In this document: positions 23,756 to 54,572 of the stretch, piece by piece
How positions within the stretch are numbered: position 1 is the stretch's first letter
How the letters are laid out: each line of letters begins with the position of its first letter
The notes under the pieces: model-generated
Seen by the model: the letters and a program-made list of their open reading frames with translations, nothing else
Database searches by the model: none
What the model was told of the DNA's origin: nothing
Translations under genes and position numbers: made by a program
From: Pseudomonas phage KPP25
Strand: one strand, 5' to 3'
DNA: 64,000 nucleotides
Sequence record: AB910393.1

Positions 23756-24082
23756 GCCGTGATCCTTTGCGGTTGGGTTGAACGCGGTGAATGTAGCACT
23801 GAAACGTTCAACGTGACAACCTTGTGGGTTGGTGGTTTTATTTTGAAACTGCTCCGATGGCCTTGCGGTTTTGTTTTTGACGACCTCGCGACTTTGTTTT
23901 AGATGGCCATGGGAGCGTGGGGGCAGGTCCACCCCTCCCCTTCAAAACACCCACTCCCCGCTTCGGATTCGTTTTCGTCTCCGACCAAAAGAATTCTTAC
24001 CCCCTCCCCCTATGCCTCTCGTGATTCGCGGAGCGAATCACCCTTACTCCTTGTGTCTTTCATCCACACTGGAGTTCGCATC
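23756..24082. promoter_or_regulatory. Divergent intergenic control region between the two arms. It has sigma70-like elements facing right (for example TTGACG-17-TAGATG) and an 8-bp inverted repeat.
   Basis: 327 bp with no ORF. It contains TGACAA-17-TTTATT and TTGACG-17-TAGATG candidate promoters, and the inverted repeat TGATTCGC-gga-GCGAATCA at 24022-24040. Confidence 0.5.
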
Positions 24083-25801: not shown

Positions 25802-26218
25802 ATGGACATCACTATGGACATCATCAAAAGCAACACCAACGAAGTCGACACCGACGCTGTAATGGAAGAACTCCACAACATCATGGCCAGCTACGCCGAG
25901 CGCGGCATATTCCTGTCGCTCTACTTCACCACCAACATCGAAATCGTCAACAAGGACGGCAACGATTACGGCTTCCGTGCTGCACGCGGCATGGTCAGCG
26001 TACCGGGCTGGGTGCATGGCGGTGGTATCGGCGCTGTCCTGAGCGCTATGGGTGAAGGCGTCGAGTTCACCGACAACCCGATCACCCTGGTGATGCGCGC
26101 TGCTCAACATGCCGCGGCGCACCAACAACTGATCACCGAGCACATGAATCAGGTGGGCGAAATCGGCCTGATCCAGCTTGTGGATAACTCCAAGTTGGAC
26201 GTGGTGAAAGCCGACTGA
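25802..26218 (+). CDS. Hypothetical protein, 138 aa.
   Basis: ORF with an in-frame ATG. Confidence 0.5.
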   Translation: MDITMDIIKSNTNEVDTDAVMEELHNIMASYAERGIFLSLYFTTNIEIVNKDGNDYGFRAARGMVSVPGWVHGGGIGAVLSAMGEGVEFTDNPITLVMRAAQHAAAHQQLITEHMNQVGEIGLIQLVDNSKLDVVKAD

Positions 26219-26242
26219 TTTCCGCACGTGTGTGAGGGGATC

Positions 26243-26275
26243 GGAGGGGGCCGACCCGCCCCCTTCTCCCCTCCG
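26243..26275 (+). terminator. Candidate terminator hairpin (AGGGGG-ccgacccg-CCCCCT) with a weak T/C tract.
   Basis: Direct inspection. Confidence 0.35.
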
Positions 26276-26339
26276 CCCTTTCTGTATCGATCGCTAACCT
26301 AAGTGGTTGTTTCTTGAAACCAATTAGCTTTTTCTATCG

Positions 26340-26880
26340 CTGTAACGCTTTCGTTCCAAACAGGATGAGACTGACTCTCAACAACCGTCACGATGTTACG
26401 AAATTCCGTCCACCGACGAAAATTTCGTAACACGCTCCAGCCCAGGCAGCACTAGGGGCACAGAGCTTTCTGTTACGATGTTACGATCTTTTCTTCTTTA
26501 TTCCACTACAGAAAATAAAAAAATAATAATAGATATAGTTAATAAGTATATAGGGCCACATATACACTGTATCTGTAGCGGAATAGCGCAGAACTTCGTA
26601 ACATTCGTGACAAAAGTGGCTCAAACCCGCGTGGCACTAAGGCTCCAGCGTGTTACGAAATTTTTTGAGATCGTGACAATCGTGACAAAATTTCCCGGCC
26701 AAAACCCCGCAAACCCGCGTGGCACTAAGGCTCCAGCCTGTTACGAAATTTTTTGAAGATCGTGACAAAACCTCGGTGTCACCCGGCACAAACCCGCGTG
26801 GCACTAAGGCTCCAGCGTGTTACGAAATTTTTTATGCACTTTCCGTCACTCCGTGACCAGATCCTTCATTTCAGTCATCC
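26340..26880. promoter_or_regulatory. AT-rich composite repeat cluster A, a candidate early promoter array and/or replication origin.
   Basis: It contains GTTACGAAATT paired with AAATTTCGTAAC as a palindrome, a GTTACGATGTTACGAT direct repeat, CTTTATTCCACTACAGAAAATAAAA with an A/T tract, and CGTGACA repeats. It also has three tandem 79-87-bp units each carrying the CGCGTGGCACTAAGGCTCCAGCGTG motif. A homologous cluster lies at 58230-58560. Confidence 0.6.
26624..26870 (+). repeat. Three tandem units (starts 26624, 26711 and 26790) of AAACCCGCGTGGCACTAAGGCTCCAGCGTGTTACGAAATTTTTT.
   Basis: Direct inspection. The three cores are identical except for a single g/c difference. Confidence 0.8.
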
Positions 26881-26894
26881 ACAGGAGCCTGGAA

Positions 26895-27098
26895 ATGCGC
26901 GTCCGCGACGTTCTGTTCTTCGCCATTTTTGCTTTCTTCGTCTTCATCGCCATGGCCATCTTCGTTTATGCCCCGGCAAAGGCCAGGAAAGCGCATTTCG
27001 AGGCGTGTTCAGCGCAAGGTGGGGTGTTGGTATACACCCGGTACGAAACCCCTCTATGCGTGAAATCTGACGCCTTCCTGTCCATCCCTAACTATTAG
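26895..27098 (+). CDS. Small membrane protein, 67 aa.
   Basis: AGGAG RBS and a hydrophobic helix. Confidence 0.5.
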   Translation: MRVRDVLFFAIFAFFVFIAMAIFVYAPAKARKAHFEACSAQGGVLVYTRYETPLCVKSDAFLSIPNY

Positions 27099-27510: not shown

Positions 27511-28587
27511 ATGCCGAGCTACGCCGATTACCCCATGCCTACTAAACACAAACGCTTGATCACCAAAGTCGAGGTATCGAAAGCGTTCGAGGCTGATCTG
27601 GACAACCACCTCCCGGTAGTGAGTGAATTGGCCAAGGTCAGAACCTACGCAGACTATGGACTGCGTGGCACGTCCAGCTACGACTCGTATGTGAATGGTT
27701 TCGACTTCGACAAGTCCAACGCTCCCGACGCTATTCCGTATATCGGCTCGAAGGCCCAACTCGCCAAAGCCAGGACACAACACCATGGCTTGTTCGACAA
27801 GCACGTGTTCAACCTGGCTTTGGCTCGTCACAACCCCAACCCCGGCACCCTCATGAAACCTTCTAGAAGCCGACTCGACCGGTCCATGTGCTACAGCCAG
27901 TTCACCGACTGCTTCTTCGACGACTGCCTTTTTCAAAACATCGATATAGTCGACGCAACATTTACGAACTGCGTTTTCTTCGGTTGCACGTTCAACAACT
28001 GCGCTAGCTACCGCACCAAGTTCGTCAACTGCATTTTCCTCAGTACGTTTTTTCAAGAAGGCAAGTGGGCGAACGCCAAATTCACCGGCTGCAAAATGTA
28101 CAGGGTACGCTTCTGCCTATCGACACATTCCGTCTCTACGTCGATGCCACAACTCGAATACGTTCAGTTCTACATGTCGAAACTCGTAGACGTAACCTTC
28201 GAAGGCGATATCTTCTATGACACTATCTTTCCGATGTCCCACTTGATCGGCGTGGCCCTGATAGATGTCGACCTAGCGAACGTGGATATGCGCACAGCAC
28301 TCCACGTCGACATCGAAAGCATGCGCGGATGCAGGCTCAGCCGACCGAATCCGACGCAGTTCATGTCGATGAACATCCACGACTACCCGATCGTGTACAC
28401 CTCGAACGTCATACAGATCGGTTGTCAGGCGTTCAGCATGGACCAGCTACGCCACTGCATCAGCATGGAAACGCAGGAGCTGTACCAGCTGGCTTCCGAT
28501 GCGCCGAGATTGGTGAAAGCCCACCTGAAGTGGCTGCTCAAGACCATCGAGCGCTTCAAACCCAAGCCGCTCCCGTACGAGTGCTGA
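27511..28587 (+). CDS. Pentapeptide-repeat protein, 358 aa.
   Basis: About 20 consecutive A(D/N)(L/F)xx-type repeats (TDCFF DDCLF ... VNCIF). It has an AGGAG RBS. Its GC content is markedly lower than its neighbours. Confidence 0.7.
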   Translation: MPSYADYPMPTKHKRLITKVEVSKAFEADLDNHLPVVSELAKVRTYADYGLRGTSSYDSYVNGFDFDKSNAPDAIPYIGSKAQLAKARTQHHGLFDKHVFNLALARHNPNPGTLMKPSRSRLDRSMCYSQFTDCFFDDCLFQNIDIVDATFTNCVFFGCTFNNCASYRTKFVNCIFLSTFFQEGKWANAKFTGCKMYRVRFCLSTHSVSTSMPQLEYVQFYMSKLVDVTFEGDIFYDTIFPMSHLIGVALIDVDLANVDMRTALHVDIESMRGCRLSRPNPTQFMSMNIHDYPIVYTSNVIQIGCQAFSMDQLRHCISMETQELYQLASDAPRLVKAHLKWLLKTIERFKPKPLPYEC

Positions 28588-29679: not shown

Positions 29680-30336
29680 ATGCTCGACAAGAAACGCGAC
29701 CGAATCCTCGCCAACCAGACCCCGCATGCGCGGAAGGTCTACGAATGCGTACCGATAGCTGAACCCTGGCCGGCGCACCAGATCATGGCGCAGTTGAAAG
29801 TCGATCGTGGTTCTGCCTTGAGCGTCGCGGTGGTTCGTGGCTGCTTGAAGGCTCTGCACGAAGCTGGGCTGATCCGCCGGCCGACCAGCGATCTGTACAT
29901 CCGCGAGAAGGTGACTGAATCGGCGGCCGCCACGATCGCCGAGCAGATGGACGAAACCGTCGCCGACTACAAACGCACAAAGCCAGCCCAGCCAGCCCAG
30001 CCAGCCCAGCCAGCCCAGCCAGCCCAGCCAGCCCAGCCAGCCCAGCCAGCCCAGCCAGCCCAGCCAGCCCAGCCAGCCCAGCCAGCCCAGCCAGCCCAGC
30101 CAGCCCAGCCAGCCCAGCCAGCCCAGCCGAAGGAACCCAGCATGTCCACCTCGATCGACACCCTGCTGAAAATCGCACAGCAGCTTTCTGTCCTGGCCGC
30201 CGAAGTCGAAGAGAAGCTGTCGGAGATCGCATCCGAGATCGAGACGGCGGCCAAGCAGGTCGAGTCCACCACCGCGGCCGATCGTGAGCAGCTGGCCAAG
30301 CTCAAGCAGCTCCAGTCTCTACTGAAGGATCTGTGA
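29680..30336 (+). CDS. Winged-helix DNA-binding protein with a (PAQ)n linker and a C-terminal coiled coil.
   Basis: GGAGAACGTA RBS. It has an N-terminal wHTH-like segment. The 9-bp repeat is translated as PAQ. Confidence 0.55.
29982..30128 (+). repeat. Perfect 9-bp microsatellite (CCAGCCCAG), about 16 copies in 147 bp.
   Basis: Direct inspection. Confidence 0.9.
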
Positions 30337-38773: not shown

Positions 38774-41179
38774 ATGGACATCGCTTTCCTGTCCGCACCC
38801 GTGCCTCTGACGAAAACGTACAAGCAGCTTCGCGGACGCATCGAAAAATCGAACTACCCGAACACCTCGTCCTTCACCTCCCACACCGAAACACCGAAAC
38901 GCCTCGAAGATTTCTACGCCGCCATCGTCGAGCACGCCAAGCAAGGCCACTGCTTGCTCAAGGGGCAGCTCAATCGAAACCTCGTCGAGGAATCCCGCGC
39001 TGGCTCGACCGAGAGCAACCAAGCCACCGAGTGGGTCTGTCTGGATATCGACGGCCTGGAAGTCGAATCCCCACAAGCGTTCATGGACGCCATCGGTCTT
39101 GGCAGTGTCAGTTACATCGTCCAGTACAGCTCAAGCTATGGGGTACTTGATGACCTGCTGCGCTGCCACATCTTCTGCCTGCTGGACAAGCCGGTCGCTG
39201 CACCGCTGCTCAAGCAGTGGCTGATCGACGTGAACTTCAACACCGAGCTGCTGTGCAGCCAGATGTCCCTCACGCCGAGCGGCAACGGCCTGCACTGGCC
39301 CCTGGATATTACCACCTGCCAGAACGACAAGCTGCTGTACATCGCGCCGCCGAACCTGATCGGCGTGCCTGATCCCTTGCAGCCCGACGAGCGCTACCAG
39401 CTCGTCAAGAACAAGGGTACGCACTTCAAGCTGCCGAAGCAGATCGGCACCGTCAGTGCGAACCGGTCGCGGATTGACGACAAGGTAAACGAGCTGCGCC
39501 TGGAAGCTGGTATGCCCAAGCGCAAGGCGTCGAAGTACAACAGCATCGGCCCCGTCGAGTTCGTAGCGAACCCGGATCAATGCACCGTCACCGGGATTAA
39601 GGAAGACCGTGGTTTCGTCTACCTGAACCTGAACGGCGGCGACAGCTGGGGTTATTACCACCCGGTCGACAAGCCGGACTTCATCTACAACTTCAAGGGT
39701 GAGCCGACCTACAAGACCAAGGATCTGGTCCCGGACTATTGGCACGACCAGCAGCGCAAGGTCGAAGAGGCCGAAGAGTCCGGCGAGGTTGTCACGCATC
39801 TGGCATTCCGCGACTTCAACTCGGCGAAGTATTACAACGGCTGGTATGACCCGGACACACGGGAGCTGGTACTCAAGCAAGCAGCCAGCGAGAAGCAATT
39901 GGCTGACTACATGGCCAGTCAAGGCCGCGCGCTGAGTGATCGAATCCCTATCTGGTCCATGGAGTTCCTGCCGTCCGAGGATTGGACGCTGAACCGTGAC
40001 TATGATCCGCCGGTGATCAACACGTTCGTGCAGAGTCCTTACCTCCAGGCCAAGCGCCCAGCTAAAGCACCGAGTGTGCCGACGCTTATCGCGCGTATCA
40101 TCCACCACGCATTGGGCGGTGACGAAGAAGTAACGGACCGGTTCTACAACTGGCTCGCCGCAGTGATGCAGAAGCGTGTAGCTATCGGCACCAGCTGGGT
40201 GCTCAGCGGCACGCAAGGCACTGGCAAGGGGCTGATCTGCAACAAGATCCTCCGCCCGATCCTGGGCGATACCTATGTCCAGCAGAAGCGCATGGACGAG
40301 TTGGACGAGAAGTTCAACGACTTCATGGAACAGTGCATCTTCCTCTTCGTCGATGAAGTGCAGCTGTCCGAAATGCGTAACGGCCGGGCACTGATGCAGC
40401 GAATCAAGAACCAGATCACCGAAGAACGGATCAGCATCCGCGGCATGCACCGCGCTGGGCAGATGATGGTGAACCACGTCAACTGGGTCTTCTGCACGAA
40501 CATGCCTGACCCGATCTACCTGACCAGTGACGACCGTCGCTTCAACATCGCACCGTTCCAGCCCAACAAGCTGCTGATCACCTCCGAAGAGATCGAAGCG
40601 ATCGAAGACGAGCTGCAACAGTTCTGCGACTACCTGATGATGCGTGAAGTCGATTTCGACCTAGCGCGCGCGGTCATCATGACCGAGCAGCGTGAGCGCC
40701 TGATCAACACCAGCAGCACCAGCATCGAACTGGCTTGCGACGCTGTACGCCGCGGTGACCTCCAGTTCTTCCTCGACGAACTGCCGAGCGATAGCCAGTC
40801 CTTCGTGCTGCCTGACACCATGCTCAAGTTGTCCCAGTACAAGCGTGCGCTTCGTGAAGTCATCGAGCACGCTTCTACGGGCGGCAAAGGCGTAGGGCGG
40901 GATGTGCTCCACACGCTGCTGCGCTACGTGCTACCGGACTGCCCCACGTCCAGCCACAAGTTCACTTCGCTGATCAAGCACCACGGCCTGTACGTGCAGT
41001 CCATGCGTATCGGTACGCGCACCACGCGCGGCATCGAAGTGGACTGGGTGGTCCCGGAAGGTGCCCTCGACCAGATCGATGGCGTCGCCGATAAACCGGT
41101 CAACGACGAGATTTCTCCGAAGACCAAAGCCGAACTGAAAAAGCACCTGAAAGGTGTAGCCGGAGGCAAATCGAAATGA
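38774..41179 (+). CDS. Bifunctional primase-polymerase (AEP-type) fused to a D5-like SF3 helicase, 801 aa.
   Basis: AEP motifs are present: a DxD motif (CLDIDG) and RCHIFCLL. The helicase shows Walker A (GTQGTGKG) and Walker B (FLFVDEV). Confidence 0.7.
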   Translation: MDIAFLSAPVPLTKTYKQLRGRIEKSNYPNTSSFTSHTETPKRLEDFYAAIVEHAKQGHCLLKGQLNRNLVEESRAGSTESNQATEWVCLDIDGLEVESPQAFMDAIGLGSVSYIVQYSSSYGVLDDLLRCHIFCLLDKPVAAPLLKQWLIDVNFNTELLCSQMSLTPSGNGLHWPLDITTCQNDKLLYIAPPNLIGVPDPLQPDERYQLVKNKGTHFKLPKQIGTVSANRSRIDDKVNELRLEAGMPKRKASKYNSIGPVEFVANPDQCTVTGIKEDRGFVYLNLNGGDSWGYYHPVDKPDFIYNFKGEPTYKTKDLVPDYWHDQQRKVEEAEESGEVVTHLAFRDFNSAKYYNGWYDPDTRELVLKQAASEKQLADYMASQGRALSDRIPIWSMEFLPSEDWTLNRDYDPPVINTFVQSPYLQAKRPAKAPSVPTLIARIIHHALGGDEEVTDRFYNWLAAVMQKRVAIGTSWVLSGTQGTGKGLICNKILRPILGDTYVQQKRMDELDEKFNDFMEQCIFLFVDEVQLSEMRNGRALMQRIKNQITEERISIRGMHRAGQMMVNHVNWVFCTNMPDPIYLTSDDRRFNIAPFQPNKLLITSEEIEAIEDELQQFCDYLMMREVDFDLARAVIMTEQRERLINTSSTSIELACDAVRRGDLQFFLDELPSDSQSFVLPDTMLKLSQYKRALREVIEHASTGGKGVGRDVLHTLLRYVLPDCPTSSHKFTSLIKHHGLYVQSMRIGTRTTRGIEVDWVVPEGALDQIDGVADKPVNDEISPKTKAELKKHLKGVAGGKSK

Positions 41180-47234: not shown

Positions 47235-47456
47235 ATGAGCGTGACGTTGTACCAGAGCGAACTGATGCGGTGTGAGAATTTGCAGACGGGCAACGTCACG
47301 TACTACATGCAGGTGTGCAACGCGATGCGGAGGATTTCCAAAGCCGAGTACGACGAGCGCTACACCAAGGCTGACGGTCTGACCTGTCTGTACACCAAGA
47401 GAAGTAAACGTTACTGCCGGCATTACCTTACCCTGCTCTACGAGGTGGCGAAATGA
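47235..47456 (+). CDS. Hypothetical protein, 73 aa.
   Basis: AGGAG RBS. Confidence 0.5.
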   Translation: MSVTLYQSELMRCENLQTGNVTYYMQVCNAMRRISKAEYDERYTKADGLTCLYTKRSKRYCRHYLTLLYEVAK

Positions 47457-47818
47457 AGCTCGACAAGATTGCGGCATTGCCTTTCCCTACTTTACAAGGT
47501 GGCGAAATGAAGTTCGACAAGATTGAGTACAGCGTATGCAACGATTGCTTGCTCTTCGTGGCGGACGGTGAACCGCCGGAGAACGGTGCCGACATAGAAG
47601 CCGCGATGCGACGAGAGATCGGCGAAGCGAAGAATGCGTACTTCGTGTGCGGCGTCGAGCCAACCGAAGATGACCCCGATGGGATCGGTGAAAACGAATT
47701 CAGCTGGCAATGGTGCGAACTTTGCCTGAGCACGCTCGGTGGTAGTCGCTACGGCGTGACGTTGATGATACCCCTGGAAGAAGGAACCGAGGATGGCAGC
47801 GCCGAAGAGCCGGACTAA
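47453..47818 (+). CDS. Cys-rich hypothetical protein, 121 aa. It has an alternative in-frame start at 47507.
   Basis: A duplicated block AGGTGGCGAAATGAAG(C/T)TCGACAAGATTG occurs at 47443 and again at 47497. Confidence 0.45.
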   Translation: MKLDKIAALPFPTLQGGEMKFDKIEYSVCNDCLLFVADGEPPENGADIEAAMRREIGEAKNAYFVCGVEPTEDDPDGIGENEFSWQWCELCLSTLGGSRYGVTLMIPLEEGTEDGSAEEPD

Positions 47819-54434: not shown

Positions 54435-54448
54435 CCGCCCTCCAGAAA

Positions 54449-54478
54449 CAAGAAACCCGGCCAGTGGCCGGGTTTTTT
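54449..54478. terminator. Bidirectional intrinsic terminator at the point where the two arms converge.
   Basis: AAACCCGGCC-agt-GGCCGGGTTT hairpin. It has an A-run upstream and a T-run downstream on both strands. Confidence 0.7.
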
Positions 54479-54534
54479 CTTGCATCGCAAGGAAGCGCGA
54501 CAGCAAGGCTCCATACGCAGTGCTCATTTTACCA

Positions 54535-54572
54535 GAAACCCGGCCATGTGTCGGGTTTCTTTTTGCTCTGTA
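54535..54572 (+). terminator. Second plus-strand terminator.
   Basis: GAAACCCG-gccatgtgt-CGGGTTTC followed by TTTTTG. Confidence 0.5.

What the first reader, a model, noticed from the sequence alone, without database searches (positions are those of the whole stretch)
26624..26870. Three tandem 79-87-bp promoter-like units in front of the early operon
Each unit starts with AAACCCGCGTGGCACTAAGGCTCCAGC(G/C)TGTTACGAAATTTTTT and then has (A)TCGTGACA repeats. The third unit ends about 25 bp before the RBS of the first early membrane-protein gene. The arrangement resembles the triple strong early promoters of T7 (A1-A3) and N4 (P1-P3). It could also be a set of repeated protein-binding sites. It is not CRISPR-like: the units are long and AT-rich and there is no spacer architecture.
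Basis: seen in the sequence. Interest (0 to 1): 0.6.

Follow-up and report, generated by a model that had tools for sequence, protein, structure and literature searches.

The report
Replication-origin-like repeats, not sigma-70 promoters
The three tandem repeats are real, but they look like part of a phage replication origin rather than three strong host-type promoters: clustered 8-bp binding sites plus a 26-bp "core" that also sits in the origins of unrelated phages and plasmids.

Summary
The window is a complete 63,687-bp Kochitakasuvirus genome (a KPP25/phiR18-like Pseudomonas podophage). The three units exist as described: 44-nt cores with 0-1 mismatch, spaced 88 and 79 bp, against 0 expected by chance.

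None of the promoter tests I could run was met. The units share no sigma-70 -35/-10 pair. They have no N4-type hairpin. I found no phage RNA polymerase gene.

The units extend a roughly 270-bp module (region A) that has a homologue 31.9 kb away (region B). The octamer TGTYACGA occurs 22 times in the genome, and 21 of those lie in A or B, arranged in inverted sets around a 60-80-bp AT-rich stretch.

The invariant part of each unit, GCTGAAACCCGCGTGGCACTAAGGCT, recurs in unrelated replicons. There it sits between element-specific iterons and an AT-rich run:
- in two plasmid oriV-like regions, one with DnaA boxes;
- inside a lambda-O-like initiator gene of a Pantoea prophage;
- beside VapE/P4-alpha-type primase-helicase genes in three phages and one plasmid;
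- directly upstream of the mapped LUZ19 phage-polymerase promoter P001.

The window itself encodes an 801-aa P4-alpha/NrS-1-like primase-helicase.

Best reading: origin-type core-plus-iteron modules (confidence about 0.55). An unconventional promoter role cannot be excluded, because the downstream operon still needs a promoter. I did not find the core described in the literature available to me.

The parts
26618..26705 (+). Unit 1. Core 26623-26649 (AAACCCGCGTGGCACTAAGGCTCCAGC), octamer TGTTACGA 26651-26658, A2T6 run 26659-26666, and two inverted octamers TCGTGACA at 26671-26678 and 26680-26687.
26706..26784 (+). Unit 2. Core 26711-26737, octamer 26739-26746, A2T6 run, and one inverted octamer at 26760-26767.
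26785..26870 (+). Unit 3. Core 26790-26816, octamer 26818-26825, A2T6 run, then only degenerate GTCAC/GTGAC. In two related genomes the octamer reads TGTCACGA instead of TGTTACGA.
26385..26617 (.). Region A base module. It holds an inverted octamer pair (26394, 26425), a degenerate core (about 26433-26466), tandem octamers (26471, 26479), an AT-rich stretch of about 65 bp (about 26488-26553, up to 93% A+T in 40 nt) and inverted octamers (26596, 26605).
26232..26275 (+). GC-rich hairpin after the upstream gene (25814-26218), followed by a T-rich tract and a second terminator-like site at 26288-26309. The operon starting at 26896 is therefore likely to need its own promoter.
58248..58546 (.). 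Region B, the homologue of region A. Octamers at 58257, 58288, 58334 and 58342; full core on the minus strand at 58323-58297; AT-rich stretch about 58355-58415; three tandem TCGTGACA at 58467-58492; truncated core on the minus strand at 58512-58486; octamers at 58527 and 58535.
38774..41179 (+). 801-aa P4-alpha/NrS-1-like primase-helicase (DUF5906). It is the candidate initiator that binds the TGTYACGA octamers. That assignment is inferred, not shown.
26896..27098 (+). First gene downstream of unit 3: a 67-aa protein that looks membrane-spanning, with its RBS AGGAG at 26883-26887.

Best explanation
The three units are reiterated 'core + iteron' modules of a phage replication origin. They are not sigma-70 promoters.

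Regions A (about 26385-26870) and B (about 58248-58546) are two homologous cis-acting replicator regions. In each, inverted sets of the octamer TGTYACGA flank an AT-rich stretch. I infer that this stretch is the unwinding element. I also infer that the octamers are bound by the phage's 801-aa P4-alpha-like primase-helicase, as in P4 ori/crr or SaPI origins.

Next to the octamers sits a 26-30-bp core, GCTGRAAsCCsCGTGGCACTAAGGCT. The same core occupies the same place, between iterons and the AT-rich run, in unrelated phage and plasmid origins. Region A carries three intact tandem copies facing the rightward operon. Region B carries one intact copy facing leftward.

Shown here: the anatomy, the clustering, the conservation, and the recurrence of the core in origin contexts.
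Inferred: which protein binds the octamers, what recognises the core, and that initiation actually happens here.
For: 1. Octamer clustering. TGTYACGA occurs 22 times in the genome and 21 of those are in A (12) or B (9). Shuffles gave a mean of 2.5 and a maximum of 9. The sites form inverted sets around a 60-80-bp stretch that reaches 90-93% A+T.

2. A and B are homologous: 139 nt at 77% identity, 31,863 bp apart.

3. Region A is 98% identical across four Kochitakasuvirus genomes. The surrounding 3 kb is 88.7-92.3% identical.

4. The core recurs in origin-type contexts elsewhere:
- P. mendocina plasmid: two sites, each with an A/T run, the core, 4-5 iterons and a DnaA box (TTATCCACA).
- S. stutzeri plasmid pPSEST02: two cores embedded in GTGGTGGGAT iterons, 110 nt after a VapE/CHC2 primase-helicase gene.
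- Pantoea prophage: the core lies between ATTACCAAC iterons inside an ORF that matches 'replication initiation O-like' (phrog_345, E = 2e-51), followed by an AT-rich stretch. This is the lambda ori-in-gene-O layout.
- 57-kb phage L003/L006: the core lies between inverted CTGGGACA iterons at the 3' end of a DUF5906 primase-helicase gene.
- Pbunavirus T34: two cores diverge from a 150-bp AT-rich region beside a VapE-like gene.
- Phage Persinger: the same layout with GTGACCA iterons, and the phage has a VapE/PriCT/Toprim primase.
- L008: the core and iterons lie beside a gene with a RepL match below Pfam's stretch threshold.

5. The core is usually present once or twice per replicon, and it is absent upstream of the window's other operons.

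6. The window encodes a P4-alpha/NrS-1-type primase-helicase (PDB 6K9C E = 3e-25; TIGR01613; DUF5906).
Against: - There is no experimental origin mapping for any Kochitakasuvirus.
- The primase-helicase gene lies 12-17 kb from both regions, whereas in several relatives it is adjacent.
- Two origin-like regions per genome is unusual. P4 ori plus crr is a precedent, but I cite that from memory.
- The operon starting at 26896 needs a promoter, and I found no conventional one anywhere in 26290-26895. Something in region A must therefore also promote transcription.
- All intact cores in A and B point the same way as the local genes, which a pure origin element would not require.
- In LUZ19 the core abuts a mapped transcription start region (PMC10914365).
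- What recognises the core is unknown. No protein family detectable by BLAST is shared by all carriers. Carriers span Pseudomonas and Pantoea, plus a MAG contig attributed to Sediminibacterium, so a single host factor is not an obvious answer.
Confidence: 0.55

Rival explanations
1. The units are unconventional promoters or transcription-activating units, either alone or coupled to origin firing as in T7 phi1.1A/B and phiOL. Host RNA polymerase, helped by a phage factor bound to TGTYACGA or to the core, would start transcription in or just after each unit and drive the operon from 26896 to 54297. The region B copy would drive the minus-strand genes from 58069 downward.
For: - A terminator-like hairpin at 26232-26275 precedes region A, and no sigma-70 promoter is found anywhere between it and the ATG. 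A non-canonical promoter must therefore exist here.
- All four intact cores point toward co-oriented downstream genes.
- In LUZ19 the core lies immediately upstream of, and in the same orientation as, the phage-polymerase promoter P001 mapped by ONT-cappable-seq.
- In L005 the core directly follows a T7-like RNA polymerase gene.
- CACTAAGG resembles the -7 to +2 region of T3 and gh-1 promoters. I recall those promoter sequences from memory.
Against: - There is no shared -35/-10 pair, and sigma-54 spacing with GC at -12 is not met in the window (TGGCAC-N5-CTCCA).
- The genome has no polymerase of its own.
- In at least four other contexts the core faces the 3' end of an oncoming gene or only iterons: L003/L006, L008, the right-hand copy in T34, and the P. 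mendocina plasmid.
- The core sits inside a coding region in the Pantoea prophage.
- The core occurs once or twice per genome, rather than before each operon.
Confidence: 0.25
2. The units are operator arrays for a phage transcription regulator. TGTYACGA sites in A and B would be operators for one phage DNA-binding protein that switches two transcription units on or off, in the way lambda OL and OR do. The real promoters would lie in the AT-rich stretches.
For: - There are two homologous control regions, each at the head of a transcription unit, with multiple inverted and tandem 8-bp sites.
- Weak sigma-70-like matches lie inside the AT-rich stretch.
Against: - This model does not explain why the core is shared with plasmid oriV-like regions, an O-like initiator gene and the flanks of primase-helicase genes.
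- No repressor-like gene was recognised next to either region.
- The promoter matches in the AT-rich stretch are no better than chance.
Confidence: 0.1
3. The units are classical tandem sigma-70 early promoters (T7 A1-A3 type) or hairpin promoters for an injected virion polymerase (N4 P1-P3 type).
For: - The position is right: upstream of a long operon that begins with small genes.
- There are three tandem copies.
- The phage has a virion protein of roughly 2,100-2,250 aa of unknown function.
Against: - The best sigma-70-like match in any unit is 9 of 12 with a 15-nt spacer, and the other units do not share it.
- Folding energies are indistinguishable from shuffles.
- The giant protein has no Pfam or PDB match over the residues tested, and no DxDGD motif occurs in any plausible ORF of the genome.
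- The genome does have a good extended -10 sigma-70 promoter elsewhere (23819-23790, minus strand), so canonical promoters are recognisable in this phage.
Confidence: 0.05

Closest known systems
Satellite phage P4 ori and crr, bound by the alpha primase-helicase (from my own knowledge; not retrieved in the paper searches)
   Same: - Octamer iterons (P4: TGTTCACC; here TGTYACGA) occur in both orientations.
- There are two separate cis regions in one genome.
- One of them is built of long direct repeats that each carry several octamers (P4 crr: 2 x 120 bp; here 3 x 79-88 bp).
- The initiator is a P4-family primase plus SF3 helicase (TIGR01613/DUF5906).
   Different: - The two regions here are 32 kb apart rather than 4.5 kb.
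- The initiator gene is not adjacent to either region.
- An extra invariant 26-bp core is present, which I do not know from P4.
- Binding has not been tested.
Iteron-type origins: lambda ori inside gene O, SaPI origins, and iteron plasmids such as pSC101 or RK2
   Same: - Element-specific short repeats flank an AT-rich unwinding region.
- The core-bearing relatives found here include a lambda-O-like gene with internal iterons and plasmid regions with iterons plus DnaA boxes.
   Different: - The window has no DnaA box.
- The shared core between the iterons and the AT-rich run has no named counterpart. In position it resembles the IHF site of pSC101, but it does not match the IHF consensus.
LUZ19/phiKMV promoter P001 region (Putzeys et al. 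2024, PMC10914365)
   Same: The identical core (CTGRAACCCGCGTGGCACTAAGGCT) occurs as a single copy in about 90-120 phiKMV-like genome records. It sits between the terminal repeat and the early promoters. In LUZ19 it lies directly upstream of the mapped phage-polymerase promoter motif GgtTATGTCACacACAnnGG.
   Different: - In LUZ19 the core is followed by a T7-type polymerase promoter rather than by octamer iterons.
- The window has no phage polymerase.
- The paper does not mention the core.
T7 A1-A3 and N4 P1-P3 early promoter triplets
   Same: Three tandem conserved elements lie upstream of an operon of small genes.
   Different: There are no sigma-70 hexamers, no hairpin and no virion polymerase. 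The element also occurs in a late-gene context and in plasmid origins.

Membership tests
Sigma-70 tandem early promoters (T7 A1-A3 type) | -35 and -10 hexamers with 16-18 bp spacing, shared by the repeats | tested here: not met
   The consensus scan found none on the plus strand in the units. A relaxed scan gave one 9-of-12 match with a 15-nt spacer in unit 1 only.
Sigma-70 tandem early promoters (T7 A1-A3 type) | Transcription starts inside each unit with host RNA polymerase | not testable with these tools
   This needs 5' end mapping or in vitro transcription. The available papers hold no transcriptome for any Kochitakasuvirus.
N4-type early promoters | Conserved 5-7 bp stem with a 3-nt loop in the single strand | tested here: not met
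   DNA folds of all three units on both strands gave z-scores from -0.44 to +0.63, with no shared hairpin.
N4-type early promoters | A virion-packaged RNA polymerase encoded by the phage | tested here: inconclusive
   The giant virion protein has no Pfam or PDB match over the 1764 residues tested, and no DxDGD motif occurs in any plausible ORF of the genome. Its fold was not predicted, so a very divergent polymerase is not excluded.
T7-like single-subunit polymerase promoters | A cognate polymerase gene, and a 20-23-bp motif upstream of many genes | tested here: not met
   tblastn with a T7-like polymerase catalytic half gave a best E-value of 0.31. The core occurs only in regions A and B.
Sigma-54 promoters | GG at -24 and GC at -12, spaced as in TGGCAC-N5-TTGC | tested here: not met
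   The window reads TGGCAC-TAAGG-CTCCA, with CC where GC is required. Only the phiKMV variant (CTGCG) has GC at that place (read).
Iteron-type replication origin (P4, SaPI, lambda, plasmid oriV) | Short repeats clustered at the locus and essentially absent elsewhere | tested here: met
   21 of 22 TGTYACGA sites lie in A or B, against a shuffle mean of 2.5.
Iteron-type replication origin (P4, SaPI, lambda, plasmid oriV) | AT-rich unwinding region flanked by the repeats | tested here: met
   A 40-nt window reaches 93% A+T in A and 90% in B, against a genome average of 40%, and lies between inverted octamer sets.
Iteron-type replication origin (P4, SaPI, lambda, plasmid oriV) | A cognate initiator encoded by the replicon | tested here: met
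   The 801-aa P4-alpha/NrS-1-like primase-helicase is present. Its binding to the octamers was not tested.
Iteron-type replication origin (P4, SaPI, lambda, plasmid oriV) | Initiation of DNA synthesis at the locus, or autonomous replication of a cloned fragment | not testable with these tools
   This needs marker-frequency analysis, 2D gels or plasmid replication assays.
CRISPR array | Repeats of 23-50 nt separated by unique spacers of similar length, with cas genes or a leader | tested here: not met
   The inter-core segments contain the same octamers and A2T6 runs, so they are not unique spacers. There were no Rfam hits.

The most novel reading that the evidence does not exclude
The 26-bp core GCTGAAACCCGCGTGGCACTAAGGCT is a previously undescribed cis-element of replication origins that is exchanged horizontally. 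It works alongside at least four unrelated initiator types: VapE/P4-alpha primase-helicases, lambda-O-like proteins, iteron/DnaA plasmids, and a phiKMV phage-polymerase promoter. It is recognised by an as yet unidentified factor, or acts as a specific priming or loading site. Kochitakasuvirus has amplified it to three tandem copies.
Probability: 0.4. Interest if true: 0.75.

Novelty: new variant of a known kind. Interest (0 to 1): 0.55.

Why it matters
- Origins of virulent Pseudomonas phages used in therapy (Kochitakasuvirus, Phikmvvirus, Pbunavirus) are essentially unmapped. A shared sequence tag that marks them would make them directly testable.
- An invariant core next to element-specific iterons implies a common step in initiation, such as priming, helicase loading or an architectural factor, that has not been named.
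- The result also offers a different interpretation of the LUZ19 antisense promoter P001. It may be an origin-associated promoter like T7 phiOL, rather than only a transcriptional barrier.
- For annotation, it warns against calling long tandem intergenic repeats 'strong early promoters' on looks alone.

Tried and rejected
- Sigma-70 promoter scans, strict and relaxed, found nothing shared by the units.
- Single-strand hairpins were not significant. An arm-loop-arm hairpin (GCTGGAGCC...GGCTCCAGC) exists in some relatives but is degenerate in the window.
- No Rfam family matched.
- No T7-like polymerase or two-barrel polymerase motif was found in the window.
- Sigma-54 was rejected because the -12 GC is not conserved across core variants.
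- A tRNA 3'-end, primer-binding-site or attP-core reading was rejected. The 20-mers are almost absent from 185,579 bacterial and archaeal genomes (0 and 2 hits), and the sequence does not fit tRNA T-arm rules.
- A ToxI-like or CRISPR-repeat decoy was rejected for the same reason.
- A relaxase nic site (MobC-like ORF near L007) and Tus/Ter, parS half-site, IHF and DnaA-box resemblances were compared by eye only. They are too weak to count.
- No protein is shared by all core carriers in BLAST all-versus-all comparisons. The only hint is a weak match (E = 0.02-0.05) between the C-terminus of the 801-aa protein and the N-terminus of the L004 441-aa protein.
- 'The core always points away from the AT-rich side' holds for most intact copies. 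The second P. mendocina plasmid site breaks it.
- Relatives of the L005 polymerase in IMG/VR lacked the core.
- A literature search for the sequence itself returned only chance matches in unrelated papers.

Full report
**What the window is.** The 3 kb around the finding matches four Pseudomonas phages of the genus Kochitakasuvirus (phiR18, CRPAP1904, YMC17/07/R4900a) at 88.7-92.3% identity. Bases 1-313 repeat at 63688-64000, so the window is a complete 63,687-bp genome that wraps around.

Gene layout:
- Structural genes run on the minus strand from about 23.7 kb through the record junction to 58.6 kb.
- A short plus-strand operon runs from about 24.08 to 26.2 kb.
- A long plus-strand operon runs from 26.9 to 54.3 kb. 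It carries small membrane proteins, then the replication genes.
- Tail-fibre-like genes run on the minus strand from 58.07 down to 54.1 kb.

The 44-nt string is present three times (26623, 26711, 26790) with 0, 1 and 0 mismatches, against none in 100 shuffles. The spacing is 88 and 79 bp. TCGTGACA follows the core in units 1 and 2, while unit 3 has only degenerate copies. An RBS and an ATG (26896) follow unit 3.

The units are the right-hand extension of a roughly 270-bp module that occurs twice. Region A starts at about 26385 and region B at about 58248, 31,863 bp apart (139 nt at 77% identity). Region B carries a full core on the minus strand (58323-58297) and a truncated one (58512-58486). 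Region A also holds a degenerate copy at about 26433-26466.

The short motifs TGTTACGA and TCGTGACA are one octamer, TGTYACGA, read on either strand. It occurs 22 times in the genome, and 21 of these are in A (12) or B (9). Shuffles gave a mean of 2.5. In both regions the octamers form inverted sets around an AT-rich stretch that reaches 90-93% A+T, in a genome that averages 40%.

Region A is 98% identical among four genomes whose flanking genes differ by 8-11%. One of the few substitutions swaps one octamer form for the other.

**Promoter tests.**
- No sigma-70 -35/-10 pair is shared by the units. The best match is 9 of 12 with a 15-nt spacer, in unit 1 only.
- The genome does have a recognisable extended -10 promoter elsewhere (23819-23790, minus strand).
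- Neither strand of any unit folds better than shuffled sequence, so an N4-type hairpin promoter is not supported.
- TGGCAC looks like a sigma-54 -24 box, but the -12 position reads CC here and varies among relatives.
- No T7-like polymerase is present (tblastn best E = 0.31).
- The giant virion protein (a 2,111-codon open frame here, matching a 2,249-position PHROG profile) has no Pfam or PDB match over the residues tested, and no DxDGD motif occurs in any plausible ORF of the genome.
- No Rfam family matches.

A GC-rich hairpin at 26232-26275 ends the upstream operon. A promoter for the 26896 operon must therefore exist somewhere in region A, but it is not a canonical one.

**The core is shared with unrelated replicons.** Exact-pattern scans and BLAST found the invariant part, GCTGRAAsCCsCGTGGCACTAAGGCT, in many places. 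It is almost always intergenic, usually present once or twice, and set between element-specific short repeats and an A/T-rich run.

| Replicon | Context of the core |
|---|---|
| P. mendocina plasmid | Two sites, each with an A/T run, the core, 4-5 iterons and a DnaA box (TTATCCACA) |
| S. stutzeri plasmid pPSEST02 | Two cores inside GTGGTGGGAT iterons, 110 nt after a VapE/CHC2 primase-helicase gene |
| Pantoea prophage | Core between ATTACCAAC iterons inside an O-like initiator ORF (phrog_345, E = 2e-51), then an AT-rich stretch |
| 57-kb phage (three contigs) | Core between inverted CTGGGACA iterons at the 3' end of a DUF5906 primase-helicase gene |
| Pbunavirus T34 | Two cores diverging from a 150-bp AT-rich region, beside a VapE-like gene |
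| Phage Persinger | Same layout with GTGACCA iterons; the phage has a VapE/PriCT/Toprim primase |
| Contig L008 | Core and iterons next to a gene with a RepL match below Pfam's stretch threshold |
| Low-GC contigs L004, L013, L029, L005 | L004/L029 beside a 441-aa gene of unknown family; L005 directly after a T7-like polymerase gene |
| About 90-120 phiKMV-like genome records | One copy between the terminal repeat and the early promoters |

The Pantoea arrangement is the classic lambda layout, with the origin inside gene O (established knowledge). In LUZ19 the core (778-754, minus strand) lies directly upstream of the motif GgtTATGTCACacACAnnGG (751-732). Putzeys et al. mapped that motif as the phage-polymerase promoter P001 on the Crick strand (PMC10914365). 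The paper does not mention the core.

The two 20-mers scanned gave 0 and 2 hits in 185,579 bacterial and archaeal genomes. A full-text search for the sequence returned only chance matches in unrelated papers.

**Interpretation.** The anatomy is that of an iteron-type origin: inverted short repeats around an AT-rich stretch, a replicon-encoded initiator, and high conservation. The window encodes an 801-aa P4-alpha/NrS-1-like primase-helicase (PDB 6K9C E = 3e-25; TIGR01613; DUF5906).

The closest precedent I know is P4 (from memory). Its alpha protein binds octamers in ori and in crr, and crr is built of long direct repeats that each carry several octamers. The three units here are the same kind of object. 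Each has a core, an octamer, an A2T6 run and one or two inverted octamers.

I therefore read the units as reiterated origin modules, with a confidence of about 0.55. I infer that the octamers bind the 801-aa protein. What recognises the core remains unknown:
- No protein detectable by BLAST is shared by all carriers.
- LUZ19 uses a DnaB-like helicase rather than a VapE type.
- Carriers span Pseudomonas and Pantoea, plus a MAG contig attributed to Sediminibacterium.
- The orientation of the core relative to the iterons and the AT-rich run is not fixed.

**Why the promoter idea is not dead.** Several points keep an unconventional, possibly origin-coupled, promoter role alive at about 0.25:
- A non-canonical promoter is needed in region A.
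- All intact cores in A and B point with the local genes.
- In LUZ19 the core abuts a mapped start region.

Against this, the core faces oncoming genes or only iterons in at least four other replicons. It also lies inside a coding region in the Pantoea prophage.

**Verdict.** The sigma-70/T7/N4 promoter reading is not supported. The shared core appears to be undescribed, and it is the interesting part.

Noticed in passing
window 1-313 and 63688-64000: The first 313 bases are identical to the last 313. The window is a whole circular-record genome of 63,687 bp with wrap-around. The giant virion gene (a 2,111-codon open frame, matching a 2,249-position PHROG profile) runs across the junction, from about 1282 to 58637 on the minus strand.
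   Followed up: yes
window 29981-30128: A perfect 9-bp tandem repeat AGCCAGCCC x 16.4 lies inside the plus-strand ORF 29680-30336. It would encode a repetitive three-residue tract and is likely to vary in length between isolates.
   Followed up: no
window 47418-47525: A 54-bp tandem duplication (88% identity) includes an RBS-like GGTGGCGAA and an ATG, so the start of a small gene is duplicated head to tail.
   Followed up: no
window 27511-28587 (+): The third gene of the operon encodes a 358-aa pentapeptide-repeat protein (Pfam Pentapeptide_4 and Pentapeptide_3). This family includes DNA mimics such as Qnr and MfpA, so it may be a gyrase- or nuclease-directed early protein.
   Followed up: partly
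window 54448-54483 and 54531-54566: Two related hairpin-plus-T-run terminators (AAACCCGGCC...GGCCGGGTTTTTT) lie at the point where plus-strand and minus-strand transcription converge.
   Followed up: no
window 23790-23819 (-): A good extended -10 sigma-70 promoter (TTGTCA, 18 nt, TG, TACATT) lies just upstream of the first gene of the minus-strand array that leads into the packaging and structural genes. Canonical host promoters are therefore present and recognisable in this phage.
   Followed up: partly
L004 8873-10198 (+) and L029 (homologue, 68% identity): A 441-aa protein (phrog_4756, unknown function) lies next to the core. It carries strings that resemble family-A polymerase or T7 polymerase motifs (DFSNLHFRIAA ... 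PVHDSFVV). Its N-terminus weakly resembles the C-terminus of the window's 801-aa primase-helicase (E = 0.02-0.05).
   Followed up: partly
L021 (LUZ19) 732-778, minus strand: The published antisense phage-polymerase promoter P001 of LUZ19 is immediately preceded by the same 25-bp core found in plasmid origin-like regions. P001 may therefore be origin-associated, like T7 phiOL. The paper proposes only a transcriptional-barrier role.
   Followed up: partly
L022 (P. mendocina plasmid) about 2000-2260 and 3940-4130: One 35-kb plasmid carries two oriV-like regions with the same iteron family, DnaA boxes and A/T runs. The core is inverted in one region relative to the other.
   Followed up: partly
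L003 about 1300-1460 (minus-strand view) and L006 about 7640-7820: In the 57-kb phage, four copies of a second repeat family (GAAATCGGAAAAATCGGGATTCG) lie between the core/iteron cluster and the end of the primase-helicase gene.
   Followed up: no
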